Assembly (NCBI RefSeq): GCF_032444005.1
Contig: NC_091284.1
Location: 673,878,001-673,942,000 of the forward strand
Length of the DNA: 64,000 bases
Direction: 5' to 3'
DNA from: Ranitomeya imitator
Lineage: Eukaryota
Shown: piece by piece, positions 1 to 61,489 of the stretch
Layout of the letters: the number at the start of each line of letters is the position of its first letter
Numbering within the stretch: the stretch's first letter is position 1
Notes under the pieces: generated by a model
Seen by the model: the letters and a program-made list of their open reading frames with translations, nothing else
Databases searched by the model: none
What the model was told of the DNA's origin: nothing
Position numbers and translations under genes: made by a program

Positions 1-122
1 GTTCCCGTCCGGAGCGCATTCCAAGGCAGTTCTTACCGAGACTCCTAACTGTCGGTCGGTGAGAATCTTCACTTCTCGGGTCTCTCGTCCGCGCTCTTTG
101 TGAACGTCCTTCTTGAGCAGCC
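1..122 (+). other. 5' UTR portion of alpha-tubulin exon 1 (TSS probably at or upstream of the window start)
   Basis: Pyrimidine-rich GC-rich sequence directly upstream of GCAGCCATG (Kozak-like) and the GTAAGT donor; no core promoter visible in the window. Confidence 0.6.
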
Positions 123-125: not shown

Positions 126-830
126 GTAAGTGATGTGAAGGGAGAGCGCCTGGCCGCCGCATCCTTGTCTAGCGGGCAGTGCTCCTCCCAAACCCTCCGC
201 ACTAAGCCCAGCCCGCCGTGCCCGTGCCGGCCGAGCGCCGTTATTCGGGCCGGGGCCTGCAGTGCGATGGGCTGTTAACCCCTTTGTGCCGGGCTCCGGT
301 GGTCACAGGCCGCGCGCTCTTTCGCTTGTGGCGCACGTGCACAGTCACGTGACCTGGACCGCTCCTTATCCGCGGCTTATAGCGGGAGGGCCTCGTGGAA
401 AGGCCGATAATTAGAGGGGCTTCCAGTGGGCGAAGCGCGGGTGGTCGGGGTGTGACTCTCGGGCCGCAGTCACGTGGCCGTGGTCCTGCTCAGCCGCTGC
501 AGCAGCCCTTCCCTATAACGGCCATAGATGGCGCCTGGCATGGGGGGCCTGGTGGGACTTGTGGTGGTCCCTGCAGGACCCTGGTCACGTGTCTGCCAGT
601 TCTGTCCCTTACAGGGGGTTGGGTCTGGTCCACTACAGAACCAGAGCATCCGCAGCACCGGATAGCAGAGGGGTCGTCCTATGTAATGGCCCCGCCTGTC
701 CCCAGGGGAAGCCATGACCCTGAGCCCACTGTTACCGGGGTCCTGAGCCCACCATTGCCGAGGAAAATGGCTGCAGCCTGATGGACAAAGAAATGGCCGG
801 CAGTCCGTCCTGTAGATTGTATGGAGCGTC
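126..830. promoter_or_regulatory. CpG-island-like 5' end of intron 1 with E-box and YY1-like motifs
   Basis: High GC/CpG density; CACGTG E-boxes (~334, GTCACGTGAC ~344-353, ~470); AGATGGCG (~526), AAAATGGC (~764) and AAATGGCC (~791) YY1-core-like motifs. Confidence 0.55.
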
Positions 831-6659: not shown

Positions 6660-7374
6660 GGCCCCTTCACATTAAGCGACGCTGCAGCGATACCGACAAC
6701 GATCCGGATCGCTGCAGCGTCGCTGTTTGGTCGCTGGAGAGCTGTCACACAGACCGCTCTCCAGTGACCAACGATGCCGGTAACCAGGGTAAACATCGGG
6801 TAACTAAGCGCAGGGCCGCGCTTAGTAACCCGATGTTTACCCTGGTTACCATGCTAAAAGTAAAAAAAACCAAACACTAGATACTTACCTACCGCTGTCT
6901 GTCCTCCAGCGCTGTGCTCTGCTCTCCTCCTGTACTGTCTGTGAGCCGGAAAGCAGAGCGGTGACGTCACCGCTCTGCTTTCCGGCTCACAGACAGTACA
7001 GGAGGAGTGCAGAGCACAGCGCTGGAGGACAGACAGCGGTAGGTAAGTATCTAGTGTTTGTTTTTTTTTACTTTTAGCATGGTAACCAGGGTAAACATCG
7101 GGTTACTAAGCGCGGCCCTGCGCTTAGTTACCCGATGTTTACCCTGGTTACCAGTGAAGACATCGCTGGATCGGTGTCACACACGCCGATCCAGCGATGT
7201 CAGCAGGAGTCCAGCGACGAAATAAAGTTCTGGACTTTATTCAGCGACCAACGATCTCCCAGCAGGGGCCTGATCGTTGGTCGCTGTCACACATAACGAT
7301 TTCATTAACGATATCGTTGCTACGTCACAAATAGCAACGATATCGTTAACAATATTGTTATGTGTGAAGGTACC
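6660..7374. mobile_element. Harbinger-type palindromic MITE (family shared with 14339..14994)
   Basis: Termini GGCCCCTTCACA / TGTGTGAAGGTACC, TTAA on both flanks; long internal inverted repeat centred on GGTGACGTCACC (~6960-6971). Confidence 0.85.
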
Positions 7375-9721: not shown

Positions 9722-10738
<1,017 letters not shown>

Positions 10739-28937: not shown

Positions 28938-31900
28938 TTAAAATCCTTTTCAAGGAAGGTAAGGTATGGACATAGGGGTGACCTGTATAGAGAGAGGCTG
29001 TATGGGTGCTCAAACTGTACACAAGGTGCTAAGTTTGGGCTCACACTGTATATAGTGGTATTGTGAGGGCTCATTTTCATGGTTGATGAAATCCGTCTTG
29101 TGGTTGTTGTTTAATCTTTATTTTCAGTTTTCAGTTAATAATATGCTCATGCTCCAGAATGGTCTGTCTTTATCTGGTGCTCTGCTTAGGTTTTCAAATT
29201 GATGGCTCCTGACAGGTGACTGATCCCTCAGTGACCTGCCCCTTATTTTACATACTGCATATAATATGTATTAAAAAAACACATTCAGCAAGTGGCGGCA
29301 CCTATAATATGCATTACATTATTTTATTTATTATTCTGAAAAAAAAACAATCTGTCTCAAAATGGCGCCGGCCACACCTGCACAGTGGCATCTACCGGCG
29401 ATTTGATAGATGCTACTGCGCAGACTCTGCCAGCTCCATTTTGCTAGAGGAAAAATAATTGTCTCCACCAAGATGGCGCCAATGTGTGACCCAATGTAGG
29501 ATTTGACTTATGACATTACATTTTCTAGGTCCCCAGTATATTGCTTTTGTGTCATGTTTTTAAGTGTTTTTAAATTTGTTGTTTTGGCTTGTTGTTTATA
29601 ATAAAAATCACCTTTGCTTCTCATTTTTGGTGATCACTGTCTCATACATAGTGCCTTTTTTTGTATTTGATATGTCTCACACTGGAAACACCCACTATTA
29701 TTTATAATTTTCTCTGGAGGCAAAGTCTCATGCAGATCGGTGTCCATAGTCCTGAACAGCTCACTTACATATAAGAAAAGCATGGATTTCTCTGGAATAA
29801 GATATCGGATCGCAGATATCAAGGTATCGTGTTATTCAGCTTCCTATGCTTTGCATGACCATATAGATGGCTTAGGAGGGTTGGCCTGCTGACAGATTAC
29901 CTTTAATTGTATGACTAGGATGATATACAATTTATGTCTCTAGGTTTGTGGGTTCTCCAACAAATCCATTGCTAATTTAAAATATAAACTTTTGTCCATA
30001 ATGTTACGCACGTGGTTGTGGAACCACGGTGCCACTGTCCATGGAGAGGCTGGAGGGGCATAACTAAGCATGCACCTAACTCTTCGCTAGAGCCCCTTAT
30101 GGTAGGGGTTAGATTTGGCTCCAGGTACACGCCAGGTTCTTCTCCAGGTGGACCCACGTAGCCATGGCAGCTTACCCCCACAGGGGAGCAGGAACGGCCA
30201 GTAATTGGTTAGCAGATTTGTACGGCACAAGTGTGACACCCCAGGTAACCGGTTGTCATAGTGATATTGCTTTCCTTTTGGGGAGGTTGATGTCATGCTT
30301 GGAGGCAAGGAGGATTCCCTTTAACAGGTAAAGCAAATACATGCAAAACATTCTGAATCCAGCCCAGAAGGGGGAGTTCTGAATCCGTATTCAGGGGAGC
30401 TTCCTCAGATGTATATACTGTATTTTGGTCTGGAGGAGGAGTTAGTGAGTTGAGCCAGGGACTTGGAGGTGAGAGGAGTGAGAGCAGATTGGAGCCGTGC
30501 AGCCACGTGTGTGCTGCAGCTCCAGTACGGAAGAGAACCAGAAGGGTTGCAGTGATAGTGAGCACTTGAGGGGAGAAGCAAAGGAGAAGAAAGGAGCTTC
30601 GAGGGGAACTGTGATTGGGCACCCTCTGCGCTGAAGCGCAGGAACCAGGCACTGGGAGCCTGAGGGTGTGTCGTACTTCACATCCCGCAGCAGAACCGGA
30701 AAGATAGAAGATTGTATGTCATCTGTCCGCACCCACACCCAAAGGTGCAACAGTACAGAGAGCCTGGGTCATGATAGAGACCCTGTAAAAAGGCTTGCAT
30801 TGCCCACCATACGGGTACTGTCTCAGGACAGGAGAGAGAGGACTTTGTAAGGGAGCCGCAGGCAGCAAGGACCTCAAATAAGAGCACGAGCAGGAAGGCT
30901 TACAAACCTCACCTGGGAGAGGGATCCACCATTGCCTCCAGGCTGGCCGGACCACATCAACTGTTGCTGGTACCCTGGACTGTGGCTTACTACAACCAGT
31001 AAACCAGGTAAAGAGACTGTAATCCTGTGTCCTCTGTTGTGAATTCTGATTTCGGGCTCCCTCCTGTGGTCATGAATGGTACTTCGGCTGGTTCTGTCCA
31101 TGGACTTTCTCTGATGTGTTTCTGAGTTTCCTTCCTCAGGTGACGAGGCTAATTCGTTAGTGGGCTGCTCTATTTAACTCCACTTGGATCTTTGTCCTAT
31201 GCCAGCTGTCAATGTTGTAGCATTGGTCTAGTTCGCTCCTGGATCTTCCTGGTTACCTGTTTTCTCCAGCAGAAGCTAAGTTTCGCTTTGCTTTTTTCTT
31301 GTTTGCTATTTTTTCTGTCCAGCATGCTTATGTGAATTTTGCCTTGCTTGCTGGAAGCTCTGGGACGCAGAGGGGCGCCTCCGCTCCGTTAGTCAGTGCG
31401 GAAGGTATTTTTCCCTGCACTCTCTGTGTGGCTTTTTAGGGTTTTGTGCTGACTGCAAAGTGACCTTTCCTATCTTCTGTCTGTTTAGTAAGTCGGGCCT
31501 CTCTTTGCTAAATCTATTTCATCTCTGTGTTTGTGATTTCATCTTACTCACAGTCAATATATGTGGGGGGCTGCCTTTTCCTTTGGGGAATTTTCTCTGA
31601 GGCAAGATAGGCTTATTTTTCCTATCTCTAGGGCTAGCTAGTTCTGAGGCTGTGACGAGGCGCCTAGGTCATGATAGGAGCGCTCCTCGGCTATTTCTAG
31701 TGTACGTGATAGGATTAGGGATTGCGGTCAGCAGAGGTTCCACTTCCCAGAGCTTGTCCTGTATTAATGTGCTATCAGGTCTTTTCTGGTGCTCTAACTA
31801 CCAGGTCCACTATTTGTTCTAACCAGCAGATCATAACAGTACAGCTGGCCAAAAGTATTGATGCATCTCAATAGAGGGATAAGTGAAGCTCTGAGACCAT

Positions 31901-36030: not shown

Positions 36031-37126
36031 TGTTGTGAATTCTGTTTTCGGGCTCCCTCCTGTTGTCATGAATGGTACTTCGGCTGGTTCTGTCCATGGA
36101 CTTTCTCTGATGCCTGTGGGTGTTTCTGAGTTTCCTTCCTCAGGTGACGAGGCTAATTCGTTAGTGGGCTGCTCTATTTAACTCCACTTGGATCCTTGTC
36201 CTATGCCAGCTGTCAATGTTGTAGCATTGGTCTAGTTCGCTCCTGGATCTTCCTGGTTACCTGTTTTCTCCAGCAGAAGCTAAGTTTTGCTTTGCTTTTT
36301 TCTTGTTTGCTATTTTTTCTGTCCAGCATGCTTATGTGAATTTTGCCTTGCTTGCTGGAAGCTCTGGGACGCAGAGGGGTGCCTCCGCTCCGTTAGTCGG
36401 TGCGGAAGGTATTTTTTCTATTCGCCACGACAGCACCCACTAGAGAGAGGGGATCCGCCCCTAGGAACAGGAAACCTACAGAGAGATAAAAGGGGCGGCC
36501 CCCCCTCGCTCCTCAGTTGGTTTCCTGTTCCTAGATGGAGACCCACAGAGAAGACTCTATGGATAGGAAGAGGAAGACCTGCCTGGACTACCGCCTGTAC
36601 GACTCTGCTGAGCGGCAGGGGTTCCAGAAGCAGGTAGACAGAGTCGGGGGAATGATCCTGCGGGCTCCCCCCTCATCTGGTGCGGCTGACAGGCAGCCTG
36701 AAGTTATCCAACGGTCTCCCTGCTGGGACACCGTTGTGGAGACGCCGACAGTGCGGGTACCTGGTGCGACGTCCTCCGGTGTGCGTCTGGGCAGCGGTGA
36801 GACGGTTCCACGATACGAGGCCCTCCTGTCCCTCCAAGGTAAGAGGTGACATGGTGGGATGCAGCAGGCAGCGGCGTCTCCCGGCATACAGGACGCGGGC
36901 GCATGCGCAGTAGCGTCGGCGTCCCGGAAATGGAGAGGAACTTCCGGGGCACGGTGTTGGAGGTCATTTCCGGGGGAACCGCCATATTGGATTCCCCCAT
37001 GTGGTGCCATTACTCTAAACGCCGGATCTGTAAGTAAAAAAAAAAAAAAAAAGTGGAGACAAAGCAAGGGGTGTGTACATTACTACACTATAAAGTGTAG
37101 TCAGTTAAGGCAGTCAGTGTGCCATT

Positions 37127-38603
37127 ATGTCGTCCCAAGAGGAGGTCAGGGTGCACCCTATGGAAGAGCCATTAGTCCCTAGTGGTGAAGCCAGGAAAAG
37201 GAATAGTGGACACTCTAAAATAAGTGACTCCACTGATAAATCAGGAAGAAAATCCTCCCGTTCCACACCCCAAGCTAAGGCATCTCCGCAGCCGGTATAA
37301 ATATTACGCTGGGTGAGTGCGTATATAGCTTCACTGAAGCTTATATTGATTCCTTTGCTTATATTATTTCTAGGCAAAGAGGACGGGGAAGAGTAAGCAC
37401 AAACAATGTGCCATATGTACCGAACCCCTGCCTGACTCCTATCTTAAAAGTCTGTGTCAGGCATGTATAGACAACACCTTACGGCAGGAGGAATCGGTTA
37501 AAATGAATGAGATACGTCTCATAATTCGGGAAGAACTCCAGTCGTTGGGAGGTGGTTCTACTTCTTCAGTAAATATGGAGAAACGAAGGAGGAAAACATC
37601 CTCTCCTAGAGCTGACACATCAGCGGAGAGTGGGGAGGTCGACTCTGATATTTCTCAGCAATCTAATTCCTCAGAGGAAGAGGACTTCGTCTGTTTTCCA
37701 ACTGAGGGCATAAACAACCTAGTAAAATCAGTGAGAAATACGATGGGGGTGTCTGAATCAAAAGAACCCCAGACGCCACAAGAAGTTATGTTCGCTGGTC
37801 TTTCTCAGAAGAAAGGCCACGTATTTCCAATAAATCAGGCCATAAAAGATCTCGTTAAAAAAGAATGGAGTAGAGGTCAAAAGGGGTTGGTCCCAATATC
37901 CTGTAAGAGGCGCTACCCCTTTGATGATGAGGATTTGAATACCTGGGCCAAGATACCAAAAGTCGATGCGGCAGTTGCGTCTACATCTCGCCGTTTCTCC
38001 TTACCAGTAGAGGATGCAGGTTCCTTATCAGATCCTATGGACCGGAAATCAGACGCACTCCTTAAAAAATCGTGGGAGGCCTGTGTCACGGCATTCAAGC
38101 CGGCTATTTCAGCCACATGTACTGGCAGATCAATGCTAGTCTGGCTGGATCAGCTGGATCAGAAGATTAAAAGTGGCGTATCTAGAGAAAAATTAAGGGC
38201 ATCTATCCCTTTGATTAAAGGTGCTGCGGCTTTTATTTCAGATGCCTCAATTGATTCCCTCCGCCTGGCGGCCAGGACAGCTAATCTCGCTAATACGGCT
38301 CGGCGGGCTTTATGGTTAAAAAACTGGAAGGGGGATGCCCAGTCAAGATCCAAATTATGTTCCATACCCTGTCAGGGTGAGTACCTGTTTGGCACAGTCC
38401 TTGATGATATTCTCACTAAGGCGGGCGAGAGGAAGAAAGGATTCCCTAATCCCTTTATTCCGTCTTACAGAAGGGCGTTCAGGAAGCCACCATTCGGAAG
38501 AAAGGGAGGCTTCAGAGACAGGTGGAATAATAAGGATTTCAAACAAAAAGGAAATCTGTTTAATAAACGCCCCTTCAAGCCAACCGATAAATTCCATCAG
38601 TGA
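37127..38603 (+). CDS. DIRS ORF1 (gag-like); probably spliced join(37127..37294, 37374..38603), ~465 aa
   Basis: Open ORF 37503..38603 extends in frame upstream to an acceptor TTTCTAG|GCA at 37374 and includes C-x2-C-x12-C-x2-C; phase-0 donors at 37295 (GTATAA) and 37313 (GTGAGT). Splicing is inferred. Confidence 0.75.
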
Positions 38604-40494
38604 TATTTCTCCGGTGGGGGGAAGACTAAAACAATTCAGTCATCAATGGAAAGAAATAACAACTAATCAATGGGCTATTAAATTAACATCCTCAGGCCTC
38701 ACACTAGACTTTATTAAAACTCCTCCGGATTCTTTCCTTCTTACCACCTTAAGATCCAAGCCTCAGCAAGAGGCACTTGAAACCGAGGTTAAAACCCTCC
38801 TACGCAAACATGTCCTAGTAGAGGTTCCATCTTCTCAGATAGGGAGAGGTTTTTACTCTCCCTTGTTCCTGATTAGTAAGCCGGATGGCTCTTTCAGAAC
38901 TATAATCAATTTGAGGAAGCTGAATTCCTTTATAAAACCTAAAACATTCAAAATGGAATCCATTCGTTCAGCTATAAAAAATCTATTTCCAAATTGTTAC
39001 ATGGTAGTATTGGATCTAAAAGATGCTTACTACCATATTCCCATTCATAATTCACACCAACAATTTCTTCGGGTAGCAGTTTGTATAGAGGGGCAAATTC
39101 GTCATTTACAATATAGAGCAATGCCCTTCGGGTTATCTATGGCCCCAAGGATTTTTACTAAGATACTATCAGAAGTAATGTCCTTTTTACGGGTAAAGGA
39201 TACTTTGGTCATTCCATATCTAGATGACCTGTTGATTGTAGGAAAGAGCCCCCTACAGTGTGAGCAGAGATTACGGGAAGTAGTCATATCCTTACAATCC
39301 CTGGGTTGGCTAGTTAATTGGGAAAAATCTAGACTTCAGCCTGTAACGTGTCAAAGATTCCTTGGGCTCCTTCTGGATTCCGTTGACCAGATTTGTAAAC
39401 TGCCTGAGGATAAGAAATTCTCCATAGTTGATAAGGTGTCCTCAGCAATAAAAAGACGTAGTATGTCACTAAGACAGGTCATGTCATTGCTAGGCTTTCT
39501 AACATCGTGCATTCCTGTGGTACAGTGGGCACAGTTCCATACTAGGCAGCTACAAAAATTTGTATTGGAGGAGGACATTAAGAATAGAGGATGTCTGGAT
39601 AGAACAGTTTTTCTAACATCGGAAGTATTACACTCCCTTAGGTGGTGGTTGGATCAGAATAATCTTTCAAAGGGGGTTCTATGGGTAATCACTCCTTCTA
39701 GTGTTGTGACCACAGATGCTAGTCCTGAAGGCTGGGGGGCACATTTTCAGGATCAATGGGTTCAGGATCTTTGGTCCAGCTCAGATCTTAATAATACCTC
39801 GAATGTCAAGGAGTTGAGGGCGGTATATTACTCCCTTCTCCACTTTCTTCCCCAGCTCAGCGGCTCTCATACAAGAGTATTCTCCGACAACACCACTGCG
39901 GTGGCGTATCTGAACCATCAGGGAGGTACAAGGTCGGACAAACTCAGGGAGGTGGCATCAGACATCATGGAATTAGCCGAAGGTCATCTACTATCACTAT
40001 CGGCAGTACACATCAGAGGCACAGACAACTTTCGTGCCGATTTCCTGAGCCGTCATACTCTTCATCAAGGGGAATGGATGCTGAGCAGGAAGATTTTCAA
40101 GGCAATAACAGCTCGATGGGGTGTTCCTCAAATAGACTTGTTTGCCACAAGAGCCAACCGTCAAGTCAAGATGTTTGCCTCTCTAAACAGGGAGGACAAG
40201 CCAGACATACTCGATGCCCTCCAGACGCCATGGACATTCGATCTGGCCTATGCTTTCCCTCCATGGAATCTATTACCTATAGTAATAAGAAAAATAAGGG
40301 AGGAGGGCGCAAAAGTTCTGTTGATAGCCCCATTTTGGCCCAAGAGGCCATGGTTCTCATGGCTGAGGGCGATGTCAGTGTCAGATCCATGGATTCTGCC
40401 TCAGTCCAAGGACCTGCTCTCTCAGGGTCCATTCCTCCATCCTCAGGCAAAGGGCATGAACTTAACTGCCTGGAGTTTGAGAGGCGGTTACTAA
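38335..40494 (+). CDS. DIRS ORF2: reverse transcriptase - RNase H - adenine-methyltransferase-like domain
   Basis: VLDLKDAYYHIP, AMPFGLSMAPRIF, PYLDD; RNase H TTDAS/ELRAV/SDN/ADFLSR; C-terminal IDLFAT...YAFPPW. Open for 719 codons; true start uncertain. Confidence 0.92.
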   Translation: MPSQDPNYVPYPVRVSTCLAQSLMIFSLRRARGRKDSLIPLFRLTEGRSGSHHSEEREASETGGIIRISNKKEICLINAPSSQPINSISDISPVGGRLKQFSHQWKEITTNQWAIKLTSSGLTLDFIKTPPDSFLLTTLRSKPQQEALETEVKTLLRKHVLVEVPSSQIGRGFYSPLFLISKPDGSFRTIINLRKLNSFIKPKTFKMESIRSAIKNLFPNCYMVVLDLKDAYYHIPIHNSHQQFLRVAVCIEGQIRHLQYRAMPFGLSMAPRIFTKILSEVMSFLRVKDTLVIPYLDDLLIVGKSPLQCEQRLREVVISLQSLGWLVNWEKSRLQPVTCQRFLGLLLDSVDQICKLPEDKKFSIVDKVSSAIKRRSMSLRQVMSLLGFLTSCIPVVQWAQFHTRQLQKFVLEEDIKNRGCLDRTVFLTSEVLHSLRWWLDQNNLSKGVLWVITPSSVVTTDASPEGWGAHFQDQWVQDLWSSSDLNNTSNVKELRAVYYSLLHFLPQLSGSHTRVFSDNTTAVAYLNHQGGTRSDKLREVASDIMELAEGHLLSLSAVHIRGTDNFRADFLSRHTLHQGEWMLSRKIFKAITARWGVPQIDLFATRANRQVKMFASLNREDKPDILDALQTPWTFDLAYAFPPWNLLPIVIRKIREEGAKVLLIAPFWPKRPWFSWLRAMSVSDPWILPQSKDLLSQGPFLHPQAKGMNLTAWSLRGGY

Positions 40495-41510
40495 ATCTCA
40501 GGGGGTTTTCTAATGGGTTAATCGATACTCTTATGAAGAGCAGAAAACCTTCAACTACCAGGATTTATGTTAGAATTTGGAGGAAATTCCTTCAATTTCA
40601 TACTACACAATTTTCCTCTGAGATTCCTATATTTCAAATATTAGAATTTCTACAAAAAGGGCTGGAATTAGGGCTCTCCGTGAGCACTCTGAAGGTGCAG
40701 GTTTCAGCATTAGGAGCTCTTTTTAATCATGACATTGCAGGAAATAAATGGATATCCCGGTTTATATCCGCTTGTGAAAGATCAAAACCAATTAACATTC
40801 CTCGGGTTCCTCAGTGGGATCTTTCGATAGTTTTGAATGCATTAACACAACCACCTTTTGAGCCTCTCCATACAGCCTCACTAAAGAACATTTCTTTGAA
40901 GACTGTTTTGCTAGTGGCATTAGTCTCTGCCAGAAGAGTGAGCGATCTCCATGCATTATCTATAGATCCTCCCTTTTTAACGGTAACATCAGATAGGATA
41001 CTTTTAAAAACAGATCCTTGTTATCTCCCTAAGGTGGCTTCTACCTTTCATAGATCCCAGGAGATCTTGTTACCCACCTTTTATGAGAACCACTCAACTC
41101 CAGAAGAAGAAAGACTTCACACCCTAGATGTAAAAAGGTCTGTCCTAGCCTATTTAGAGAGAACTAGGGACTGGAGGAAGAGTAGGGCTCTCTTTGTGTC
41201 TTTCCAGGGTAAAACCAAGGGTGCCGGAGTCACAAAGAACACATTATCTCGCTGGATCAGAGAGGCCATAATCTTGGCGTATAAAGCTGGAGGGAAAGAT
41301 CCTCCAATGCATGTGGGAGCGCACTCTACAAGAGCCTTGTCGACTTCCTGGGCAGAAAGGGCGAATGTGCCAATAGACCTTATATGTAAGGCTGCAACTT
41401 GGTCTTCACCAAATACCTTCTATAAGCATTATAGATTAGATCTATCCTCTGCTTCTGATCTAACTTTTGGTGTATCGGTCCTTGACTCAGTAAACCCACC
41501 CAGTCTATAG
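40074..41510 (+). CDS. DIRS ORF3: tyrosine recombinase
   Basis: Catalytic R (SARRVSDL), H-x-x-R (HSTR), W (ATWSS) and Y (FYKHY); open for 478 codons and overlapping ORF2. Confidence 0.93.
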   Translation: MDAEQEDFQGNNSSMGCSSNRLVCHKSQPSSQDVCLSKQGGQARHTRCPPDAMDIRSGLCFPSMESITYSNKKNKGGGRKSSVDSPILAQEAMVLMAEGDVSVRSMDSASVQGPALSGSIPPSSGKGHELNCLEFERRLLNLRGFSNGLIDTLMKSRKPSTTRIYVRIWRKFLQFHTTQFSSEIPIFQILEFLQKGLELGLSVSTLKVQVSALGALFNHDIAGNKWISRFISACERSKPINIPRVPQWDLSIVLNALTQPPFEPLHTASLKNISLKTVLLVALVSARRVSDLHALSIDPPFLTVTSDRILLKTDPCYLPKVASTFHRSQEILLPTFYENHSTPEEERLHTLDVKRSVLAYLERTRDWRKSRALFVSFQGKTKGAGVTKNTLSRWIREAIILAYKAGGKDPPMHVGAHSTRALSTSWAERANVPIDLICKAATWSSPNTFYKHYRLDLSSASDLTFGVSVLDSVNPPSL

Positions 41511-42920
41511 TCTCTGCAATTCTCTCTAGTGGGTGCTGTCGTGGCGAATAGAAAATACCGGATTACGTACCGGTAATGCTCTTTTATAGAGCCCACGACA
41601 GCACCCGTTCACATCCCTCCCTTTTCTGTATATAGTTGCACATGGTGCTTGTTTGGTGAGGTGTAAATATTAGAAAGATATAATATGAGGTTGTAAATAT
41701 GTGTATATATGTATATACCTGAACCTGTTAACTAAAACTTGGCGGCGGTTCCTCCTATTCTCTGTAAAACAACTGAGGAGCGAGGGGGGGCCGCCCCTTT
41801 TATCTCTCTGTAGGTTTCCTGTTCCTAGGGGCGGATCCCCTCTCTCTAGTGGGTGCTGTCGTGGGCTCTATAAAAGAGCATTACCGGTACGTAATCCGGT
41901 ATTTCCCTGCACTCTCTGTGTGGCTTTTTAGGGTTTTGTGCTGACTGCAAAGTGACCTTTCCTATCTTCTGTCTGTTTAGTAAGTCGGGCCTCTCTTTGC
42001 TAAATCTATTTCATCTCTGTGTTTGTGATTTCATCTTACTCACAGTCAATATATGTGGGGGGCTGCCTTTTCATTTGGGGAATTTTCTCTGAGGCAAGAT
42101 AGGCTTATTTTTCCTATCTCTAGGGCTAGCTAGTTCTGAGGCTGTGAGGAGGCGCCTAGGTCATGATAGGAGCGCTCCACGGCTATTTCTAGTGTACGTG
42201 ATAGGATTAGGGATTGCGGTCAGCAGAGGTTCCACTTCCCAGAGCTTGTCCTGTATTAATGTGCTATCAGGTCTTTTCTGGTGCTCTAACTACCAGATCC
42301 ACTATTTGTTCTAACCACCAGATCATAACAGTCCTCTGTTAATTCTGGCACCACGCCACTCTAGCCAAACACACCGGGAGCCCTGGGGACCCAGTTTCAC
42401 CTGTGGATCTTTGCTGCAGCACCATTGCTCCCAGAGGACCCCTTTAAGCAAAGTCTGTCACCCCTGACCAAGTACCACAGGTGGCGTCACGAACTTTTAT
42501 TATTTTCGCAACCTCTTTATAGACTGTTCCTTTTACTTGGGTGCCCAGGGCAATGACCAGGTTGCCGCCACCGTGACCACCCCTTTAATAACGACCGAAC
42601 CTGGTACCTACGGCCCTGGCGGGCATTCTACAAGCAAGACAGGACAGGACAGGACCCCTGGACGACCAAAATACAGGATAGCAGCTGCAGATTCTCATGT
42701 CCAAGTTCAGACTGGGTAGACTAGCGGGCACAGGTACAGGACAGACGGATCAGAATCAGGACTCAGCATAGGCAGGACAGACTCGGGTATGGGAATAGCA
42801 GGGTGGACTGGGACAGGAATTGACTGGGCAGAATGGATCAGGAGCACTGAGACATTACAACTGACTAGTAGGAAACACTAGAACTAACTAAGTTGCTAAG
42901 TCATCTCCCAATAGAGGAGG

Positions 42921-49265: not shown

Positions 49266-51235
49266 CCTGTATTTTTCCGGACTATAAGACGCACCGGACT
49301 AAAGGCGCACCCAGGTTTTAGAGGTGGAAAATAGGGAAAAAAAATATTTGAAGCAAAAAAAATGTGGTAAAATATTTAATAACATAAATAACATACTATT
49401 ATATGTGGTGTTATTATATATAATAGTATGTTATTATGTTGGAAGCTGCGGGACCAGTGTGGTGTCTGTGAAGTACTGTATGAAGACGCTGGAGGGTGAG
49501 TATAAGAATGGGGGCACAGGGCTTATATTGAAAACACTACTCCAGCACTGCAAAATAACACTGGAGTGCTGCTTTAAAGGGAACCTGTCACCCCGTTTTT
49601 TGAGATTGAGATATAAATACTGTTAAATAGGGCCTGCGCTGTGCGTTACTATAGTGTATGTAGTGTACCCTGATTCCCCACCTATGCTGCGCAATACATT
49701 ACCAAAGTCGCCGTTTTCACCTGTCAATCAGGCTGGTCAGGTCGGGTGGGCGTGTTCACAGCGCTGTTTCTTCCTCAGCTTTACGTTGGTGGCGTAGTTG
49801 TGTCCGCATGTTGAGGTGACTAATCCACTGTGGGCACGTGAACAAGGAGTACGCGATCTGCGCTATCACCCCCTGTCATCGGTGGGGGCGGCCATCTTCC
49901 TGGGGCCACGCGTGCGCAGATGTAGTGCTCTGCTGCACGGGGCTTCAGGAAAATGGCCGCGGGATGCCGCGCGTGCGCACAAGAGATCGCGGCGGCCATT
50001 TTCCCAAAACCGAAATGCAAACTCGGCTTTGGGAAAATGGCCGCCGCGATCTCTTGTGCGCACGCGCGGCATCCCGCGGCCATTTTCCTGAAGCCCTGTG
50101 CAGCAGAGCACTACATCTGCGCACGCGCGGCCCCAGGAAGATGGCCGCCCCCACCGATGACAGGGGGTGATAGCGCAGATCGCGCGCTCCTTGTTCACGT
50201 GCCCACAGTGGATTAGTCACCTCAACGTGCGGACACCACTACGCCACCAACGTAAAGCTGAGGAAGAAACAGCGCTGTGAACACGCCCACCCGACCTGAC
50301 CAGCCTGATTGACAGGCGAAAACGGCGACTTTGGTAATGTATTGCGCAGCGTAGGTGGGGAATCAGGGTACACTAGATACACTATAGTAACGCACAGCGC
50401 AGGCCCTATTTAACGGTATTTATATCTCAATCTGAAAAAACAGGGTGACAGGTTCCCTTTAAAATCCCATGGGAGAACTATAACTCCCAGCATGTCCTGC
50501 AGATCCTATGACATGCTGGGAGTTATAGTTCACCAAAGGAGTGGCAGAGTGCTTTATTGTGTTTTGTAAAGACTAACCTCTTAATTGTGGCAGCCAGCCA
50601 CACTGTGGTGAGGTAAAAGCATCCCATGACTGCACACAGAGCCTACCCTCTTGTTTCCTTTCCAGAGCACAGGTTATGAGGAAGCTGCAGATTCTAGTGG
50701 GGAGCCTGAAGGACCTGTGATGATGTCAAGAAGAGGGAGGGCTCTGAGCTGCCATGTGATGCTCCAGCCCGCCCACTCCTGACATCAAACAGGTCCTGTT
50801 TGTGCACAGTACTCGGCGTCCAGCCCAGGCATGGCAGGCAGGTATGCAGCGATCTCCTCTCTCCTCTGGCCCCTGCTGCTGCTGCCTCCTCCTCCCCCGG
50901 ACACACAGATCTCCCCAGCAGCTGCAGGAATCGGCGCTGGGGAAGCCATGTGTGTCCCTGCTCAAGTGCAGTATTCATTTGCTGCTCCGGACTCACCGCT
51001 CAGCTGATAGGTGGGCGGGGAGCCGCTAATGAATATTCACTGCACTTCATCGGGACCACATGGTTTCCCCAGCACTGATTCTGGGCAGCGAGGACATCCT
51101 GAAGTGGCATGACAGTGAGATCCCACTCACTGCTGCCCCCCTCCCCACATGCTACATCCGTACCATAAGACGCACCCACACTTTCCTCCCAAATTTGGAG
51201 GAAAAAAAGTGCGTCTTATGGTCAGAAAAATACGG
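49266..51235. mobile_element. Tc2/pogo-like non-autonomous element inserted in the L1 endonuclease region
   Basis: TA|CCTGTATTTTTCCGGACTATAAGACGCAC ... GTGCGTCTTATGGTCAGAAAAATACGG|TA; removing it restores the L1 motif SRINLALGN. Confidence 0.85.
49578..50458. mobile_element. T2-type foldback MITE: 881-bp near-perfect palindrome
   Basis: TTAA|AGGGAACCTGTCACCC ... GGGTGACAGGTTCCCT|TTAA; equal-length arms around a 9-nt loop at 50014-50022. Confidence 0.93.
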
Positions 51236-53616: not shown

Positions 53617-56600
53617 TGTTATGGACCTGGTGGTTAGGAGCACCCGAAAAGACCTGATGGTTAAACTAACAAGGACAAGCTCTGGGAAGTGGGAGCTCTG
53701 CTGACCGCAACCCCTAATCCTATCACACACACTAGAAATGGCCGTGGAGCGTTCCTGAGTCTCCCTAGATGCCTCTTCACAGCCTAAGAGCTAACTAGCC
53801 CTAGAGATAGAAAATAAAGCCTACCTTGCCTCGGAGAAATTCCCCAAAGGTAAAGGAAGCCCCCCACATATATTGACTGTGAGTTAAGATGAAAGTCACA
53901 AACACAGAAATGAAACAGGTTTCAGCAAAGGGAGGCCAGACTTACTAAACAGACTGAGGATAGGAAAGGTATCTTTGCGGTCAGCACAAAAAACTACAAA
54001 AAGACCACGCAGAGTGTGCAAAAAGACCTCCGCACCGACTCACGGTACGGAGGTGCCACTCTGCATCCCAGAGCTTCCAGCTAGCAAGGCAAAATCATGA
54101 TAGCAAGCTGGACAAGAAAACAATGAACAAATAATAAACTAGCAGGGACTTAGCTTCTGCTGGAGTAGACAGGTCACCAGAAAGATCCAAGACCGAACTG
54201 AACCAGTACAAGAACATTGACAGCTGGCATAAAGTAACGATCTGAGTGGAGTTAAATAGAGCAGCCAGCCAAAGAATTAAACTAAATCACCTGTGGAAGG
54301 AACCTCAGAAGCAGCAGCTCCACTCACAGCCACCAGAGGGAGTCCATGGACAGAACTCGCCGAAGTACCATTCATGACCACAGGAGGGAGTTCGATAACA
54401 GAATTCACAACAGTACCCCCTCCCCTTGAGGAGGGGTCACCGAACCCTCACCAGAGCCCCCAGGTCGATTAGGACGAGCCAAATGAAAGGCACGAACTAG
54501 ATCGGCCGCATGAACATCAGAGGCAAAAACCCAGGAATTATCTTCCTGACCATAACCCTTCCACTTGACCAGGTGCTGGAGTTTCCGTCTCGAAATATGA
54601 GAATCCAAAATCTTCTCCACCACATACTCCAACTCCTCCTCGACCAACACCGGGGCAGGAGGATCAACGGAGGGAACCATAGGCGCCACGTATCTCCGCA
54701 ACAACGACCTATGGAACACATTATGGATGGAAAAAGAAGCTGGAAGGGCCAAATGAAAAGACACAGGATTGAGAACTTCAGAAATCTTATACGGACCAAT
54801 GAAACGAGGCTTAAACTTAGGAGAGGAAACCTTCATAGGAACATAACGAGACGACAACCAAACCAAATCCCCAACACGAAGTCGGGGACCAACACAGCGC
54901 CGGCGGTTAGCGAAACGTTGAGCCTTCTCCTGGGACAATGTCAAATTGTCCACCACATGAGTCCAAATCTGCTGCAACCTGTCCACCACAGTATCCACAC
55001 CAGGACAGTCCGAAGGCTCAACCTGCCCTGAAGAGAAACGAGGATGAAAACCAGAATTACAGAAAAACGGCGAAACCAAAGTAGCCGAGCTGGCCCGATT
55101 ATTAAGGGCGAACTCAGCCAAAGGCAAGAAGGACACCCAATCACCCTGATCAGCAGAAACAAAGCATCTCAGATATGTTTCCAACGTCTGATTAGTTTGT
55201 TCGGTTTGGCCATTTGTCTGAGGATGGAAAGCCGAAGAAAAAGACAAATCAATGCCCATCTTAGCACAAAAGGACCGCCAAAACCTCGAAACAAACTGAG
55301 AACCTCTGTCCGAGACGATGTTCTCCGGAATGCCATGCAAATGAACCACATGCTGGAAAAACAATGGCACCAAATCAGAGGAAGAAGGCAACTTAGACAA
55401 GGGTACCAAATGGACCATCTTAGAGAAGCAATCACAAACCACCCAAATGACCGACATCCTCTGAGAGACAGGGAGATCTGAAATAAAATCCATGGAAATA
55501 TGCGTCCAGGGCCTCTTCGGGACTGGCAAGGGCAAAAGCAACCCACTGGCACGAGAACAGCAGGGCTTAGCCCGAGCACAAGTCCCACAGGACTGCACAA
55601 AAGAACGCACATCCCGTGACAAAGAAGGCCACGAAAAGGATCCAGCCACCAAATCTCTGGTACCAAAGATTCCAGGATGACCAGCCAACACCAAACAATG
55701 AACCTCAGAGATAACTCTACCAGTCCATCTATCAGGGACAAACAGTTTCTCCGCTGGACAACGGTCAGGTCTATCAGCCTGAAACTTCTGCAACACCCGC
55801 CGCAAATCAGGGGAGATGGCAGACAAAATTACCCCCTCTTTGAGAATACCCGCCGGCTCAGGAACACCCGGAGAGTCAGGCACAAAACTCCTTGACAGGG
55901 CATCAGCCTTCACATTCTTAGAGCCCGGAAGGTACGAAACCACAAAATCAAAATGGGAGAAAAACAGCGACCATCGAGCCTGTCTAGGATTCAACCGTTT
56001 GGCAGACTCGAGATAAGTCAAATTCTTGTGATCCGTCAAAACCACCACGTGATGCTTGGCTCCTTCAAGCCAATGTCGCCACTCCTCGAATGCCCACTTC
56101 ATGGCCAACAACTCTCGATTGCCAACATCATAATTGTGCTCAGCAGGTGAGAACTTTCTAGAAAAGAAGGCACATGGTTTCATCACCGAGCCATCAGAAC
56201 TTCTTTGCGACAAAACAGCCCCTGCTCCAATCTCAGAAGCATCAACCTCGACCTGGAACTGGAGCGAAACATCTGGCTGACACAACACAGGGGCAGAAGA
56301 AAAACGACGCTTCAACTCCTGAAAAGCCTCTATAGCCGCAGAGGACCAATTGACCACATCAGCACCTTTCTTGGTCAAATCTGTCAACGGTTTAGCAACA
56401 CTAGAAAAATTAGCGATGAAGCAACGGTAAAAATTAGCAAAGCCCAGGAACTTCTGCAGGCTCTTCACAGATGTCGGCTGAGTCCAATCATAAATGGCCT
56501 GAACTTTAACAGGGTCCATCTCGATATTAGAAGGGGAAAAAATGCAACCCAAAAATGAAACCTTCTGAACTCCAAAGAGACACTTTGACCCCTTCACAAA

Positions 56601-59310
56601 CAAGGAATTCGCACGAAGGACCTGGAACACCATTCTGACCTGCTTTACATGAGACTCCCAATCATCCGAAAAGACCAAAATATCATCCAAATATACAATC
56701 ATGAATCTATCCAGGTACTCTCGGAAGATGTCATGCATAAAGGACTGAAATACAGATGGAGCATTAGAGAGCCCGAATGGCATAACCAGGTGCTCAAAAT
56801 GGCCCTCGGGCGTATTAAATGCTGTTTTCCATTCATCGCCCTGTTTAATACGCACAAGATTATACGCCCCTCGAAGATCTATCTTGGTGAACCAACTAGC
56901 CCCCTTAATCCGAGCAAACAAATCAGACAGCAGCGGCAAAGGGTACTGAAATTTGACTGTGATCTTATTAAGTAGGTGGTAATCAACACAAGGTCTCAAA
57001 GAACCATCCTTCTTGGCCACAAAAAAGAACCCTGCTCCCAACGGTGATGACGACGGGCGAATATGACCTTTCTCCAAGGATTCCTTTATATAACTCCGCA
57101 TAGCGGCGTGCTCTGGCACAGATAAATTGAACAGTCGGCCCTTAGGAAACTTACTACCAGGAATCAAATTAATAGCACAATCGCAATCCCTATGGGGAGG
57201 TAGGGCACTGGATTTGGGCTCATCAAATACATCCCGGTAATCCGACAAAAATTCAGGAACTTCAGAAGGAGTGGAAGGCGAAATTGACAACAATGGAACA
57301 TCACCATGTACCTCTTGACAACCCCAGCTGGACACAGACATAGATTTCCAATCCAAAACTGGATTATGGACCTGTAGCCATTTCAACCCCAAAACGACCA
57401 CATCATGCAGATTATGCAACACCAAAAAGCGAATATCCTCCTGATGTGCAGGAGCCATGCACATGGTCAATTGAGTCCAGTACTGAGGCTTATTCTTGGC
57501 CAAAGGCGTAGCATCAATTCCTCTCAATGGAATAGGATACTGCAAAGGCTTCAAGAAAAAACCACAGTGCCTGGCAAACTCCAAGTCCATCAAATTCAGG
57601 GCAGCGCCTGAATCCACAAATGCCATAACAGAATAGGACGACAAAGAGCAAATCAGAGTAACGGACAAAAGAAATTTAGACTGTACCGTACCAATGGTGG
57701 CAGACCTAGCGAACCGCTTAGTGCGCTTAGGACAATCGGAGATAGCATGAGTGGAATCACCACAGTAAAAACACAGCCCATTCCGACGTCTGTGTTCTTG
57801 CCATTCAGCTCTGGTCAAAGTCCTATCACATTGCATAGGCTCAGGCCTATGCTCAGAGAATACCGCCAAATGTTGCACAGCTTTGCGCTCCCGCAAGCGC
57901 CGATCGATCTGAATGGCCAAGGACATAGACTCATTCAGACCAGCAGGCGTGGGAAATCCCACCATGACATCCTTAAGGGTTTCAGAAAGACCCTTTCTGA
58001 AAATTGCCGCCAGGGCACACTCATTCCACTGAGTAAGCACAGACCACTTTCTAAACTTCTGACAATATACCTCCACCTCATCCTGACCCTGACGCAAAGC
58101 CAGCAAGATTTTCTATGCCTGATCCACTGAATTTGGTTCATCATAAAGCAATCCAAGCGCCAGAAAAAATGCATCTACATCACGCAATGCAGGATCTCCT
58201 GGCGCAAGGGAAAATGCCCAGTCTTGAGGGTCACCACGCAACAAAGAAATAATGATTTTTACTTGTTGAACGGGGTCACCAGAGGAGCGGGGTTTCAAAG
58301 CAAGAAACAGTTTACAATTATTTTGAAATTCAGGAACCTAGATCTATCCCCAGAAAACAAATCAGGAATAGGAATTCTAGGCTCTAACATCGGATTCTGA
58401 ACCACAAAATCTTGAATGTTTTGTACCCTTGCAGTGAGATGATCCACACAAGAGGACAGACCTTGAATGTCCATATCTACACCTGTGTCCTGAACCACCC
58501 AGAGGTTAAGGGGAAAAGAAAGACAAAACACGCTGCAGAGAAAAAAAAAAGGTCTCAGAACTTCTCTTATCCCTCTATTGAGATGCATTAATACTTTGGG
58601 CCAGCTGTACTGTTATGGACCTGGTGGTTAGGAGCACCCGAAAAGACCTGATGGTTAAACTAACAAGGACAAGCTCTGGGAAGTGGGAGCTCTGCTGACC
58701 GCAACCCCTAATCCTATCACACACACTAGAAATAGCCGTGGAGCGTTCCTGACTCTCCCTAGACGCCTCTTCACAGCCTAAGAGCTAACTAGCCCTAGAG
58801 ATAGAAAATAAAGCCTACCTTGCCTCAGACAAATTCCACAAAGGTAAAGGAAGCCCCCCACATATATTGACTGTGAGTTAAGATGAAAGTCACAAACACA
58901 GAAATGAAACAGGTTTCAGCAAAGGGAGGCCAGACTTACTAAACAGACTGAGGATAGGAAAGGTATCTTTGCGGTCAGCTAGCAAGGCAAAATCATGATA
59001 GCAAGCTGGACAAGAAATCAATGAACAAATAATAAACTAGCAGGGACTTAGCTTCTGCTGGAGTAGACAGGTCACCAGAAAGATCCAAGACCGAACTGAA
59101 CCAGTACAAGAACATTGACAGCTGGCATAGAGTAACGATCTGAGTGGAGTTAAATAGAGCAGCCAGCCAAAGAATTAAACTAAACCACCTGTGGAAGGAA
59201 CCTCAGAAGCAGCAGCTCTACTCACAGCCACCAGAGGGAGTCCATGGACAGAACTCGCCGAAGTACCATTCATGACCACAGGAGGGAGTTCGATAACAGA
59301 ATTCACAACA
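53617..59310 (-). mobile_element. Gypsy/chromovirus LTR retrotransposon copy 2 (5' LTR 58611..59310; 3' LTR 53617..54412)
   Basis: TG...CA LTRs; PPT at ~54413-54430; GGGGAT duplicated at 53611-53616 and 59311-59316. Confidence 0.96.
54405..58106 (-). CDS. Open 1233-codon gag(C-terminal)-PR-RT-RH-IN-chromodomain frame of Gypsy copy 2
   Basis: CFYCGDSTHAISDC, FVDSGA, YLDD, DASE/TDH, HHCC+DDE integrase and chromodomain. The upstream gag start (ATG at 58474) is disconnected by a 1-bp deletion (~58322) and TAG at 58115-58113. Confidence 0.9.
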   Translation of the reverse strand: MLALRQGQDEVEVYCQKFRKWSVLTQWNECALAAIFRKGLSETLKDVMVGFPTPAGLNESMSLAIQIDRRLRERKAVQHLAVFSEHRPEPMQCDRTLTRAEWQEHRRRNGLCFYCGDSTHAISDCPKRTKRFARSATIGTVQSKFLLSVTLICSLSSYSVMAFVDSGAALNLMDLEFARHCGFFLKPLQYPIPLRGIDATPLAKNKPQYWTQLTMCMAPAHQEDIRFLVLHNLHDVVVLGLKWLQVHNPVLDWKSMSVSSWGCQEVHGDVPLLSISPSTPSEVPEFLSDYRDVFDEPKSSALPPHRDCDCAINLIPGSKFPKGRLFNLSVPEHAAMRSYIKESLEKGHIRPSSSPLGAGFFFVAKKDGSLRPCVDYHLLNKITVKFQYPLPLLSDLFARIKGASWFTKIDLRGAYNLVRIKQGDEWKTAFNTPEGHFEHLVMPFGLSNAPSVFQSFMHDIFREYLDRFMIVYLDDILVFSDDWESHVKQVRMVFQVLRANSLFVKGSKCLFGVQKVSFLGCIFSPSNIEMDPVKVQAIYDWTQPTSVKSLQKFLGFANFYRCFIANFSSVAKPLTDLTKKGADVVNWSSAAIEAFQELKRRFSSAPVLCQPDVSLQFQVEVDASEIGAGAVLSQRSSDGSVMKPCAFFSRKFSPAEHNYDVGNRELLAMKWAFEEWRHWLEGAKHHVVVLTDHKNLTYLESAKRLNPRQARWSLFFSHFDFVVSYLPGSKNVKADALSRSFVPDSPGVPEPAGILKEGVILSAISPDLRRVLQKFQADRPDRCPAEKLFVPDRWTGRVISEVHCLVLAGHPGIFGTRDLVAGSFSWPSLSRDVRSFVQSCGTCARAKPCCSRASGLLLPLPVPKRPWTHISMDFISDLPVSQRMSVIWVVCDCFSKMVHLVPLSKLPSSSDLVPLFFQHVVHLHGIPENIVSDRGSQFVSRFWRSFCAKMGIDLSFSSAFHPQTNGQTEQTNQTLETYLRCFVSADQGDWVSFLPLAEFALNNRASSATLVSPFFCNSGFHPRFSSGQVEPSDCPGVDTVVDRLQQIWTHVVDNLTLSQEKAQRFANRRRCVGPRLRVGDLVWLSSRYVPMKVSSPKFKPRFIGPYKISEVLNPVSFHLALPASFSIHNVFHRSLLRRYVAPMVPSVDPPAPVLVEEELEYVVEKILDSHISRRKLQHLVKWKGYGQEDNSWVFASDVHAADLVRAFHLARPNRPGGSGEGSVTPPQGEGVLL

Positions 59311-61489
59311 GGGGATGTGCTGTAATTGAAAATATGTGACCTTGTTGGACATTGCAATTTTCTGGACTCTGTTTCTTTGTTTGAATTTCGTTAATAAAAA
59401 TCTATCTGATTCAAGAAAAAAGAAGCTGGCTGTTCACAGAGTGCTGTATCCAAGCATATTAATGGAAAGTTGCGTGGAAGGAAAAAGGTGCACAAGCAAC
59501 CGGGATAACCACAGCCTTGAAAGGATTGTTAAGAAAAGGTCATTAAAAAATTTGGGGGAGATTCACAAGGAGTGGACTGCTGCTGGAGTCATTGCTTCAA
59601 GAGCCACCACACACACAGATGCATAGCCTACAAGTTGCAAGTGTAGCATTCCTTGTGTCAAGCAACTCATGATCAATAGACAACACTTTCTAGAAGTGTC
59701 TTACCTGGGCCAAGGAGAAAAATAACTGGACTGTTGCTCGGTGGTCCAAGGTGTTGTTATCACATGAAAGTATATTTTGGATTTCATTTGGATATCAAGG
59801 TCCCAGAGTCTGGAGGAAGAGTGTAGTGGCACACAATCCAAGCTGCTTGAGGTCTAGTTTCCACAATCAGTGATGGTTTGAGGAGCCATGTCATCTGCTG
59901 GTGTAGGGCCACTGTGTTTTATCAAGACCAAAGTAAGTGCAGCCGTCTACCAGGAAATTTTAGAGCACTTCATGCTTCCCTCTGCTGACAAGCTTTTTGG
60001 AGATGGAAATATAATTCTCCAGCAGGACTTGGCACCTGTCCACACTGCCAAAAGTACCAATACCTGGTTTAAAAACAACAGTATCACTGTGCTTGATTGG
60101 CCAGCAAACTCACCTGATCTTAACCCCATGAAGAATCTATGGCACATTGTCAAAAGGAAGATGAGAGACACCAGACCCAACAATGCAGACGAGCGGAAGG
60201 CTGCTATCAAAGCAACCTGGGGTTCTAAAACACCTCAGCAGGGCCACAGGCTGATCGCCTCCATACCACTCCGCATTGATGCAGTAATTGATGCAAAAGG
60301 ATCCCCAACCAAGTATTGAGTGCATTTACTGAACATACATTTCAGTAGGCCGACATTTCAGATTTTAAAATCATTTTTCAAGCTGGTGTTATAAAGTATT
60401 CTAATTTACTGAGATAATGTATTTTGGGTTTTCATTGGCTGAAAACTATAATCAACAACATAAACAAAAATAAACACTTGAAGTAGGTCACTCTGTTTGT
60501 AATGACTCTATAATATATGAGTTTCACTTTTTGTTTTGAATAACTGAAACTTTTTGATGATATTTAATTTAGTGAGAAGCACTTGTAAATAAGGAATAGC
60601 CAGGTATTGCTGTTGATAGCATGAGTTACGAATACATAGGCTTTATAGGGCAAGGTATTAGCCATAGAACTTACCATGTCTCATTCATTGGATTGGACTT
60701 TCCTTGGATCCTGTTTGTTTTTTGAACCAACCTGGATAGATGAGTTCGAATCTCTTTTTTTCTCTCCTTGATTCATTGGTTGATGCTGTTGATGCAAACC
60801 TTCAACCACTCACCCAATACGGTATATGTTGTCCATGGGCACGTTTCAAACGTGTCCATGTATGGACTATGGTGTATGGACCGGCAACGGTATTCCTAAT
60901 CCAAACTCAACAACATCATAGGCATATGTAAAGTTGTTGAGCTCAGTTCAGGAGATCCACTGCCGGTCAATACAGTACATCATGGTCTGCACTGGGATAC
61001 ACGGATGTGTGATACCGGCATTAGTTATTTTGGAACACATATTTGTTGTATGTGTTATCACAGTTTTCATGGATTTATATTAAATGTTCAGCTTTAAGGA
61101 TATATCTCACTACTTTTATTTGCTTTAGGTTTGTTTGGAGAGAATGAGGTTTGATATTTTAAATGGATATTCACCCCCAGTTTTATCACTTTGGAATAAG
61201 ATAGCTTATCTTGTGTGGATAGTTATCATTTATGAATCCAAAAACAGAACTAGATCCAGTAACATTGAGTAGGAAAATTTAACTTCTCTCTGCTAGAAGG
61301 ACTTACTATTTTCATAAAATGCAAATTTCACCATGTAAATAAGCTCTAAAGTTGCTTCTAGAGTTACTTCTACTGTATTGAGGTGGTTATAAACTGTGGT
61401 GTCATGTGACACTATTATTACTTAAAGGGGAAAGTTTTTTATTTCTTATACTGGCCATATACAGGAGATAGCTATCTATCAATCAAATG

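What the first reader, a model, noticed from the sequence alone, without database searches (positions are those of the whole stretch)
58600..59156. Independent copy conserves the same TATA+30 / PBS complementarity despite LTR divergence
Seen: on the minus strand, copy 2 has TATTTAA (59156-59150), GCCAGCTGT exactly 30 nt downstream (59126-59118), and CA|GT-ACAGCTGGC after the LTR (58608-58600). The spacer sequence differs from copy 1 (CCACTCAGATCGTTACTCTAT vs CCACTTGGATCTTTGTCCTAT), and the LTR bodies are visibly divergent. Conserved motifs and spacing in a diverged LTR suggest selection.
Basis: partly seen in the sequence, partly recalled or inferred. Interest (0 to 1): 0.7.

Follow-up and report, generated by a model that had tools for sequence, protein, structure and literature searches.

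The report
Self-priming Gypsy retrotransposon in poison frog
This jumping gene, one of tens of thousands of related copies in what is probably a poison-frog genome, carries at the spot where DNA copying starts nine letters that pair with the predicted first nine letters of its own RNA, and relatives change those letters on both sides together, so it likely primes itself without a host tRNA, a trick already known from yeast Tf1 and already proposed for this vertebrate group.

Summary
The motifs are at the stated coordinates. They belong to a young Ty3/gypsy chromovirus (PR-RT-RNaseH-IN-chromodomain). Copy 1 is a separate insertion of the same family (internal region 93.5% identical, LTRs 87%), not an independent replicate. 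The family has at least 21,130 LTR-PBS junctions in the genome. TATA and the 30-nt spacing are outliers. What is kept is the pairing: three large subfamilies use three different 9-mers, each matched by its PBS (95 of 108 copies perfect), and other chromovirus families (about 58% RT identity) use different 10-mers, also starting at TATA+30. This is the signature of Tf1/sushi self-primed reverse transcription, known from yeast and already proposed for vertebrate members. The transcript start and the cleavage are inferred, not shown. This scan noted the same signature before in other genomes. Side observation: this family makes 6-bp target-site duplications, its relatives 5-bp. New member of a known kind; low interest.

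The parts
58611..59310 (-). Copy 2, 5' LTR (TG...CA, 700 bp; lacks 96 nt near 58976-58979 that its own 3' LTR has)
   Evidence: 98.6% identical to the 3' LTR
59150..59156 (-). TATA-like box TATTTAA
   Evidence: conservation 0.99 over 108 copies
59118..59126 (-). Predicted first 9 nt of the transcript = predicted self-primer (GCCAGCTGT), TATA+30 to +38
   Evidence: pairing stops sharply at both ends; start site itself not measured
59111..59114 (-). TGTT at +13..+16, can pair with the AACA end of U5 (candidate flanking duplex)
   Evidence: 97-99% paired over 108 copies but invariant, so no covariation
58609..58610 (-). 2-nt GT spacer between LTR end and PBS; mirrored by AC between PPT and 3' LTR
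   Evidence: 34 of 34 fully bordered copies have GT and AC
58600..58608 (-). Primer-binding site ACAGCTGGC, reverse complement of the self-primer; does not begin with TGG
54405..58112 (-). Long ORF (1235 aa): protease, RT, RNase H, integrase, SH3_Tf2-1, chromodomain; the frame upstream, in the 5' part of gag, is broken in this copy
54416..54427 (-). Polypurine tract
53617..54412 (-). Copy 2, 3' LTR (796 bp), with the same TATA and 9-mer (54228-54220)
59311..59316 (-). 6-bp target-site duplication ATCCCC (other copy 53616-53611)
31035..31838 (+). Copy 1, 5' LTR, with TATA 31171-31177 and 9-mer 31201-31209
31841..31849 (+). Copy 1 PBS ACAGCTGGC after GT
36031..42330 (+). Copy 1, 3' LTR, split by a nested element at about 36417-41901; 6-bp TSD GTCCTC

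Best explanation
This is a Ty3/gypsy chromovirus whose PBS is the exact complement of the nine bases that begin 30 nt after its TATA box, and it likely starts reverse transcription by self-priming as Tf1 does. Shown: the anatomy, the complementarity and its compensatory variation. Inferred: RNA polymerase II starts at TATA+30 (the G at 59126); the first 9 nt fold back over a leader of about 600 nt onto the PBS; the element's RNase H would cut after nt 9, freeing a 3' OH that sits 2 nt from the LTR end; RT would copy GT-U5-R from it, giving linear DNA ends with two extra bases (AC-TG...CA-GT) that integrase would trim. Selection on replicating lineages would therefore fix the TATA-to-primer distance (the primer must be the very 5' end) and the pairing, but not the letters.
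For: Domains of a chromovirus; closest proteins are dendrobatid-frog, Xenopus and fish Gypsy polyproteins with a chromodomain. Perfect 9/9 pairing in 68 of 79 scored copies picked by a 5'UTR word that excludes both sites and in 28 of 30 subfamily-C copies; 95 of 108 together, against a mean of 33 and maximum of 50 in 10,000 shuffles, which ignore relatedness. Three large haplotypes differ at 3 of 9 pairs, each swapped on both sides; at least 3, 2 and 4 compensated changes on a tree of 138 LTRs built without the primer. Of 275 conserved candidate helices in the leader only this one has three doubly changed pairs, and pairing stops exactly at +1 and +9. In other chromovirus families (RT-RH about 58% identical) 12 of 17 copies with a called LTR end have a perfect, different 10-mer, 3 have one mismatch, 2 none (truncated or interrupted LTR); 14 of the 15 begin exactly 30 nt after a TATA-like box. 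Predicted pairing probability 0.94-0.99 in the copy 2 leader and 0.70-0.75 in copy 1. Literature: self-priming is described as common to Tf1/sushi elements of fungi and vertebrates.
Against: No transcript 5' end, cleavage product or cDNA was observed. The primer is 9 nt here against 11 in Tf1. The two flanking duplexes of the Tf1 'pretzel' are not supported by covariation: the post-PBS candidate scores no better than shuffles (-9.4 vs -9.7 kcal/mol) and the U5-end candidates are short or invariant. 13 of 108 copies are mismatched, and most rare PBS variants are uncompensated (0 of 24 at PBS position 4, 0 of 28 at position 5), as expected for mutations after insertion but not a positive sign. 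The three subfamily changes are shared by descent, so copy counts overstate the number of events.
Confidence: 0.92

Rival explanations
1. Shared descent only: the two window copies agree because they belong to one young family and nothing special is selected.
For: 87% LTR and 93.5% internal identity; each feature would stay identical with probability 0.29-0.39; the 9-mers are not conservation outliers.
Against: Explains the two-copy identity but not the double swaps at exact partner positions nor the different complementary 10-mers at the same positions in families at about 58% RT identity.
Confidence: 0.02
2. The 5'-end/PBS helix is a structural element (circularising or packaging the leader) and priming uses a host tRNA or tRNA fragment.
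For: The leader has other conserved helices, one 10-bp and one 5-bp stem with compensatory changes, so RNA structure is under selection here for other reasons too. A TGG occurs within the site in all three main haplotypes.
Against: A whole tRNA ends in CCA, so its site must begin with TGG next to the LTR (established knowledge); here TGG lies 8 nt after the LTR end in subfamilies A/B, 5 nt in C, and is absent from the compensated haplotype ACAGGAGGC. A site fixed by a host RNA should not change in step with the element's own 5' end. The helix ends exactly 2 nt from the LTR end, where a primer 3' end must lie. The host's full tRNA set could not be tested: the search returned 63 scored matches and the 6 loci scanned were all tRNA-Lys.
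Confidence: 0.05
3. Self-priming, but the covariation is produced mechanically: plus-strand synthesis copies the primer into the PBS in each cycle (as retroviruses copy the tRNA), so one mutation is followed by templated correction rather than by selection for a second mutation.
For: Compensated swaps recur in several backgrounds; copies with a variant primer in both LTRs and the old PBS exist (L088, L112), the expected intermediate.
Against: Only pairs 4, 5 and 7 and only A-U/U-A and G-C/C-G swaps were seen; no compensated transition among the rare variants at PBS positions 4 and 5 (0 of 52 scored). The chimeric PBS class I suspected of being partial primer copies is as rare as point mutation (about 12 against 9,815 subfamily-C copies) and carries C-type internal sequence. 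Recombination between subfamilies can also give recurrence.
Confidence: 0.3

Closest known systems
Tf1/Tf2 (Schizosaccharomyces pombe), Tj1, Tosmo1-3: self-primed reverse transcription
   Same: [quoted passage not shown]
   Different: 9-nt duplex instead of 11; leader loop about 600 nt; flanking 'pretzel' duplexes not shown here; in Tf1 the mechanism rests on experiment, here on sequence comparison only.
Vertebrate Tf1/sushi group (GyDB V-clade: sushi-ichi, Amn-ichi/-ni/-san; Butler et al. 2001, seen only as a citation)
   Same: Vertebrate chromovirus; Amn-san is reported as the most abundant frog LTR element with a chromodomain; self-primers described for the group in yeast and vertebrates.
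   Different: This family and its three primer/PBS haplotypes were not found described in the papers searched; it has a 6-bp TSD where the other sampled chromovirus families of this genome have 5 bp; its exact place relative to Amn-san or sushi-ichi was not tested on a tree.

Membership tests
Ty3/gypsy chromovirus | LTRs with TG...CA ends, TSD, PPT; domain order PR-RT-RH-IN | tested here: met
Ty3/gypsy chromovirus | Chromodomain at the integrase C-terminus | tested here: met
   PF00385 E 8.7e-10 at residues 1163-1210, after rve and SH3_Tf2-1
Tf1/sushi self-priming group | No tRNA-type PBS | tested here: met
   Site after CA-GT does not begin with TGG; TGG offset varies or is absent among haplotypes. 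tRNA fragments not excluded: full host tRNA set not obtained
Tf1/sushi self-priming group | PBS complementary to a sequence at the predicted 5' end of the transcript, kept by compensatory change | tested here: met
Tf1/sushi self-priming group | Transcript really starts at the self-primer | not testable with these tools
   Only assembled contigs were available; inferred from the fixed TATA+30 distance
Tf1/sushi self-priming group | Three-duplex 'pretzel' around the PBS | tested here: inconclusive
   +13..16 TGTT with the U5 end AACA pairs in 97-99% of 108 copies but is invariant; post-PBS duplex no better than shuffles
Tf1/sushi self-priming group | RNase H cleavage releases the primer | not testable with these tools
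   RNase H domain present; activity not testable
V-clade (sushi-ichi, Amn-san) | RT/IN phylogeny with the named V-clade members | not tested
   No named reference sequence was returned; nearest hits are frog and fish chromodomain Gypsy polyproteins at 40-55% identity outside dendrobatids

The most novel reading that the evidence does not exclude
In this 21,000-copy vertebrate family the PBS is rewritten from the self-primer in each replication cycle, so primer and PBS drift together as a private 'priming code'; the three codes may limit cross-priming between subfamilies, and the copy number makes the inheritance of the PBS in self-priming elements testable from one genome. The family's integrase has also shifted to a 6-bp stagger.
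Probability: 0.25. Interest if true: 0.45.

Novelty: new member of a known kind. Interest (0 to 1): 0.22.

Why it matters
Self-priming has been shown by experiment in fission yeast and proposed for vertebrate relatives from a few sequences. This family gives clean population-level support in a vertebrate: repeated compensatory swaps and a fixed TATA+30 start in several families. It also implies that one of the large repeat families of this genome would be out of reach of tRNA-fragment competition at the PBS. It does not reveal a new mechanism.

Tried and rejected
Sequence conservation of the 9-mers as the signal: rejected. Partial primer copying as the source of chimeric PBS sequences: rejected, frequency fits point mutation and the internal regions are of the same subfamily as the LTR. 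Post-PBS flanking duplex: no better than shuffles. RNA evidence: no RNA holder listed; the four runs laid were contigs, which cannot show a start site; no evidence either way. tRNA comparison: the genome search gave only tRNA-Lys arrays in the 6 of 30 loci scanned. My first border-calling script was noisy and was replaced. In one search the aligner misplaced one subfamily-C copy, so the counts quoted for pairing come from the position-anchored scripts. The primary Tf1 papers and one review were not held, so Tf1 details come from passages in later papers. No paper on a 6-bp TSD in vertebrate chromoviruses came up (the phrase had 0 occurrences in the 15 listed), and the strawberry poison frog genome paper has no mention of priming or PBS; other poison-frog genome papers were seen only as listings and their supplements were not read.

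Full report
Observation. A given 9-mer is expected at one site with probability 3.5e-6 and anywhere in the LTR with 0.002, so the complementarity is real.

What the element is. Copy 2 spans 59310-53617 with TG...CA LTRs that differ by 1.4%, a polypurine tract and a 6-bp TSD. Its long ORF carries protease, RT, RNase H, integrase, SH3_Tf2-1 and a chromodomain: a Ty3/gypsy chromovirus. Its frame is broken in the 5' part of gag. The nearest proteins are from dendrobatid frogs (mostly 80-96% identity over parts), then Xenopus, other frogs and fish (40-55%); the assembly is 5.96 Gb. The host is therefore probably a poison frog (inference). Copy 1 is a separate insertion of the same family: 93.5% identical internally, 87% in the LTR with 24 gap runs. 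Both copies are about equally young, so the LTR differences arose in replicating lineages before insertion. Exact LTR-PBS junction words occur 11,315 times for haplotypes A+B and 9,815 times for haplotype C.

Between the two window copies alone, each feature would stay identical with probability 0.29-0.39 (0.017 jointly, chosen after the fact), and the 9-mer lies in a longer identical block. I sampled 84 copies by a 5'UTR word that excludes both sites (first places on one chromosome, 4 without a TATA region and 1 with an unparsed PBS dropped) and 30 subfamily-C loci (one a duplicate), 108 in all. Mean conservation, weighted to genome proportions: primer 0.81, PBS 0.84, median 9-nt LTR window 0.85; 64% and 55% of windows are at least as conserved. 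TATA is 0.99 (top 1.5%; anchoring on it inflates this) and the 30-nt spacing holds in 108 of 108 (top 3%; the dropped copy had a shorter spacer).

What is conserved is the pairing. Three large haplotypes exist: GCCAGCTGT/ACAGCTGGC (39 copies), GCCACCTGT/ACAGGTGGC (27) and GCCTCCAGT/ACTGGAGGC (28); with one further compensated copy, 95 of 108 pair at 9 of 9, against 33 on average and 50 at most in 10,000 shuffles (the shuffle ignores relatedness). As a control for relatedness: 578 column pairs covary tightly between subfamilies, 57 are complementary in both states, only 4 lie in helices of 9 bp or more, and 3 of these are in this helix. Among 275 conserved candidate helices only this one has three doubly changed pairs, and pairing stops exactly at +1 and +9. 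Targeted searches for rare PBS letters (30 loci each of 153, 60, 133 and 86 matches) gave compensated primers in 9 of 27 and 4 of 30 scored loci at two positions and in 0 of 24 and 0 of 28 at the other two; the uncompensated ones fit mutation after insertion. On a tree of 138 LTRs without the primer, pairs 4, 5 and 7 change at least 3, 2 and 4 times between paired states (recombination may inflate this; one search shows LTR and internal trees differ for some copies). The truly independent replicates are other chromovirus families (20 loci picked from the best SH3_Tf2-1 matches; RT-RH about 58% identical): of 17 with a called LTR end, 12 have a perfect 10-mer, 3 one mismatch, 2 none; the letters differ between families; 14 of 15 start exactly 30 nt after a TATA-like box, and all 17 have a 2-nt spacer by the way the PBS was read.

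Mechanism. Shown: anatomy and covariation. Inferred: transcription starts at TATA+30 (the usual polymerase II geometry, established knowledge); +1..+9 pair with the PBS (predicted probability 0.94-0.99 in the copy 2 leader, 0.70-0.75 in copy 1); RNase H cuts after +9; RT extends the 3' end across GT into U5. The GT after the LTR and AC before the 3' LTR (34 of 34) fit linear ends with two extra bases for integrase processing. A tRNA primer is unlikely: the site does not begin with TGG, TGG shifts or disappears between haplotypes, and the site changes in step with the element's own 5' end; tRNA fragments could not be excluded by comparison. The Tf1-type flanking duplexes are unresolved: +13..16 TGTT pairs with the U5 end in 97-99% of copies but never varies, and a post-PBS duplex is no better than shuffles. 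No read data could show a start site.

Comparison with what is known. Tf1 RNA's first 11 bases pair with the PBS and RNase H cuts between bases 11 and 12 (PMC7175516, passages). [quoted passage not shown] Amn-san chromoviruses are the most abundant LTR elements of Xenopus (PMC4131045, passages). PMC3601003 and PMC2864245 were read as passages and add only that some chromoviruses use hairpin or self priming. Levin 1995 and 1996, Lin and Levin 1997 and 1998, Atwood-Moore 2006 and Butler 2001 were seen only as citations. Searches listed no paper describing self-priming in poison-frog elements; that is a statement about those searches only, and supplements were not read. Earlier notes of this scan report the same signature in other genomes; I did not test them and they did not change my reading; none concerned this element.

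Verdict. A real feature with a well-supported, already known explanation: a new member of the Tf1/sushi self-priming kind. The extras worth keeping are the repeated compensatory swaps in a 21,000-copy family, which make the inheritance of the PBS testable, and the 6-bp TSD. Interest 0.22.

Noticed in passing
window 59311-59316/53611-53616, 31029-31034/42331-42336; L081-L140; L061-L079: This family makes 6-bp target-site duplications (both window copies; 25 of 34 bordered copies exact, 4 more with one mismatch, 3 of 5 bp, 2 none), whereas 12 of 13 copies of the other chromovirus families have 5 bp.
   Followed up: partly
window 36417-41901: A nested element with LAP2alpha-like, RT and weak tyrosine-recombinase ORFs (DIRS-like; the label is from my knowledge of that domain set) sits inside the 3' LTR of copy 1.
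   Followed up: no
leader of the family, +163..172/+213..222 and about +456..460/+477..481 from the predicted start (numbering of L032): Two further stems with compensatory changes, and invariant long-range pairings +243..254/+518..529 and +154..163/+541..550, point to a selected fold of the long R/U5 leader. The 96-nt deletion in the 5' LTR of copy 2 removes part of this region.
   Followed up: partly
genome G000: 119,556 first-look candidates for the SH3_Tf2-1 domain: chromoviruses are very abundant. The 34 dated copies of this family have 0-2.4% LTR-LTR divergence, median 1.4%, a recent burst from already diverged subfamilies.
   Followed up: partly
L081, L293, L294: A subfamily-C lineage has a 4-nt tandem duplication of the primer's 3' end directly after the primer.
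   Followed up: no
window 9722-10738 (+): Tubulin coding exon: the host gene of the window.
   Followed up: no
window 23316-24923: Tc1/mariner transposon with 128-nt inverted ends and a 366-aa frame with transposase domains.
   Followed up: no
window 4515-5556, 24992-26353, 6779-7152, 49573-50463: Minisatellites (55-59 nt and 31-34 nt units) and several long fold-back inverted repeats.
   Followed up: no
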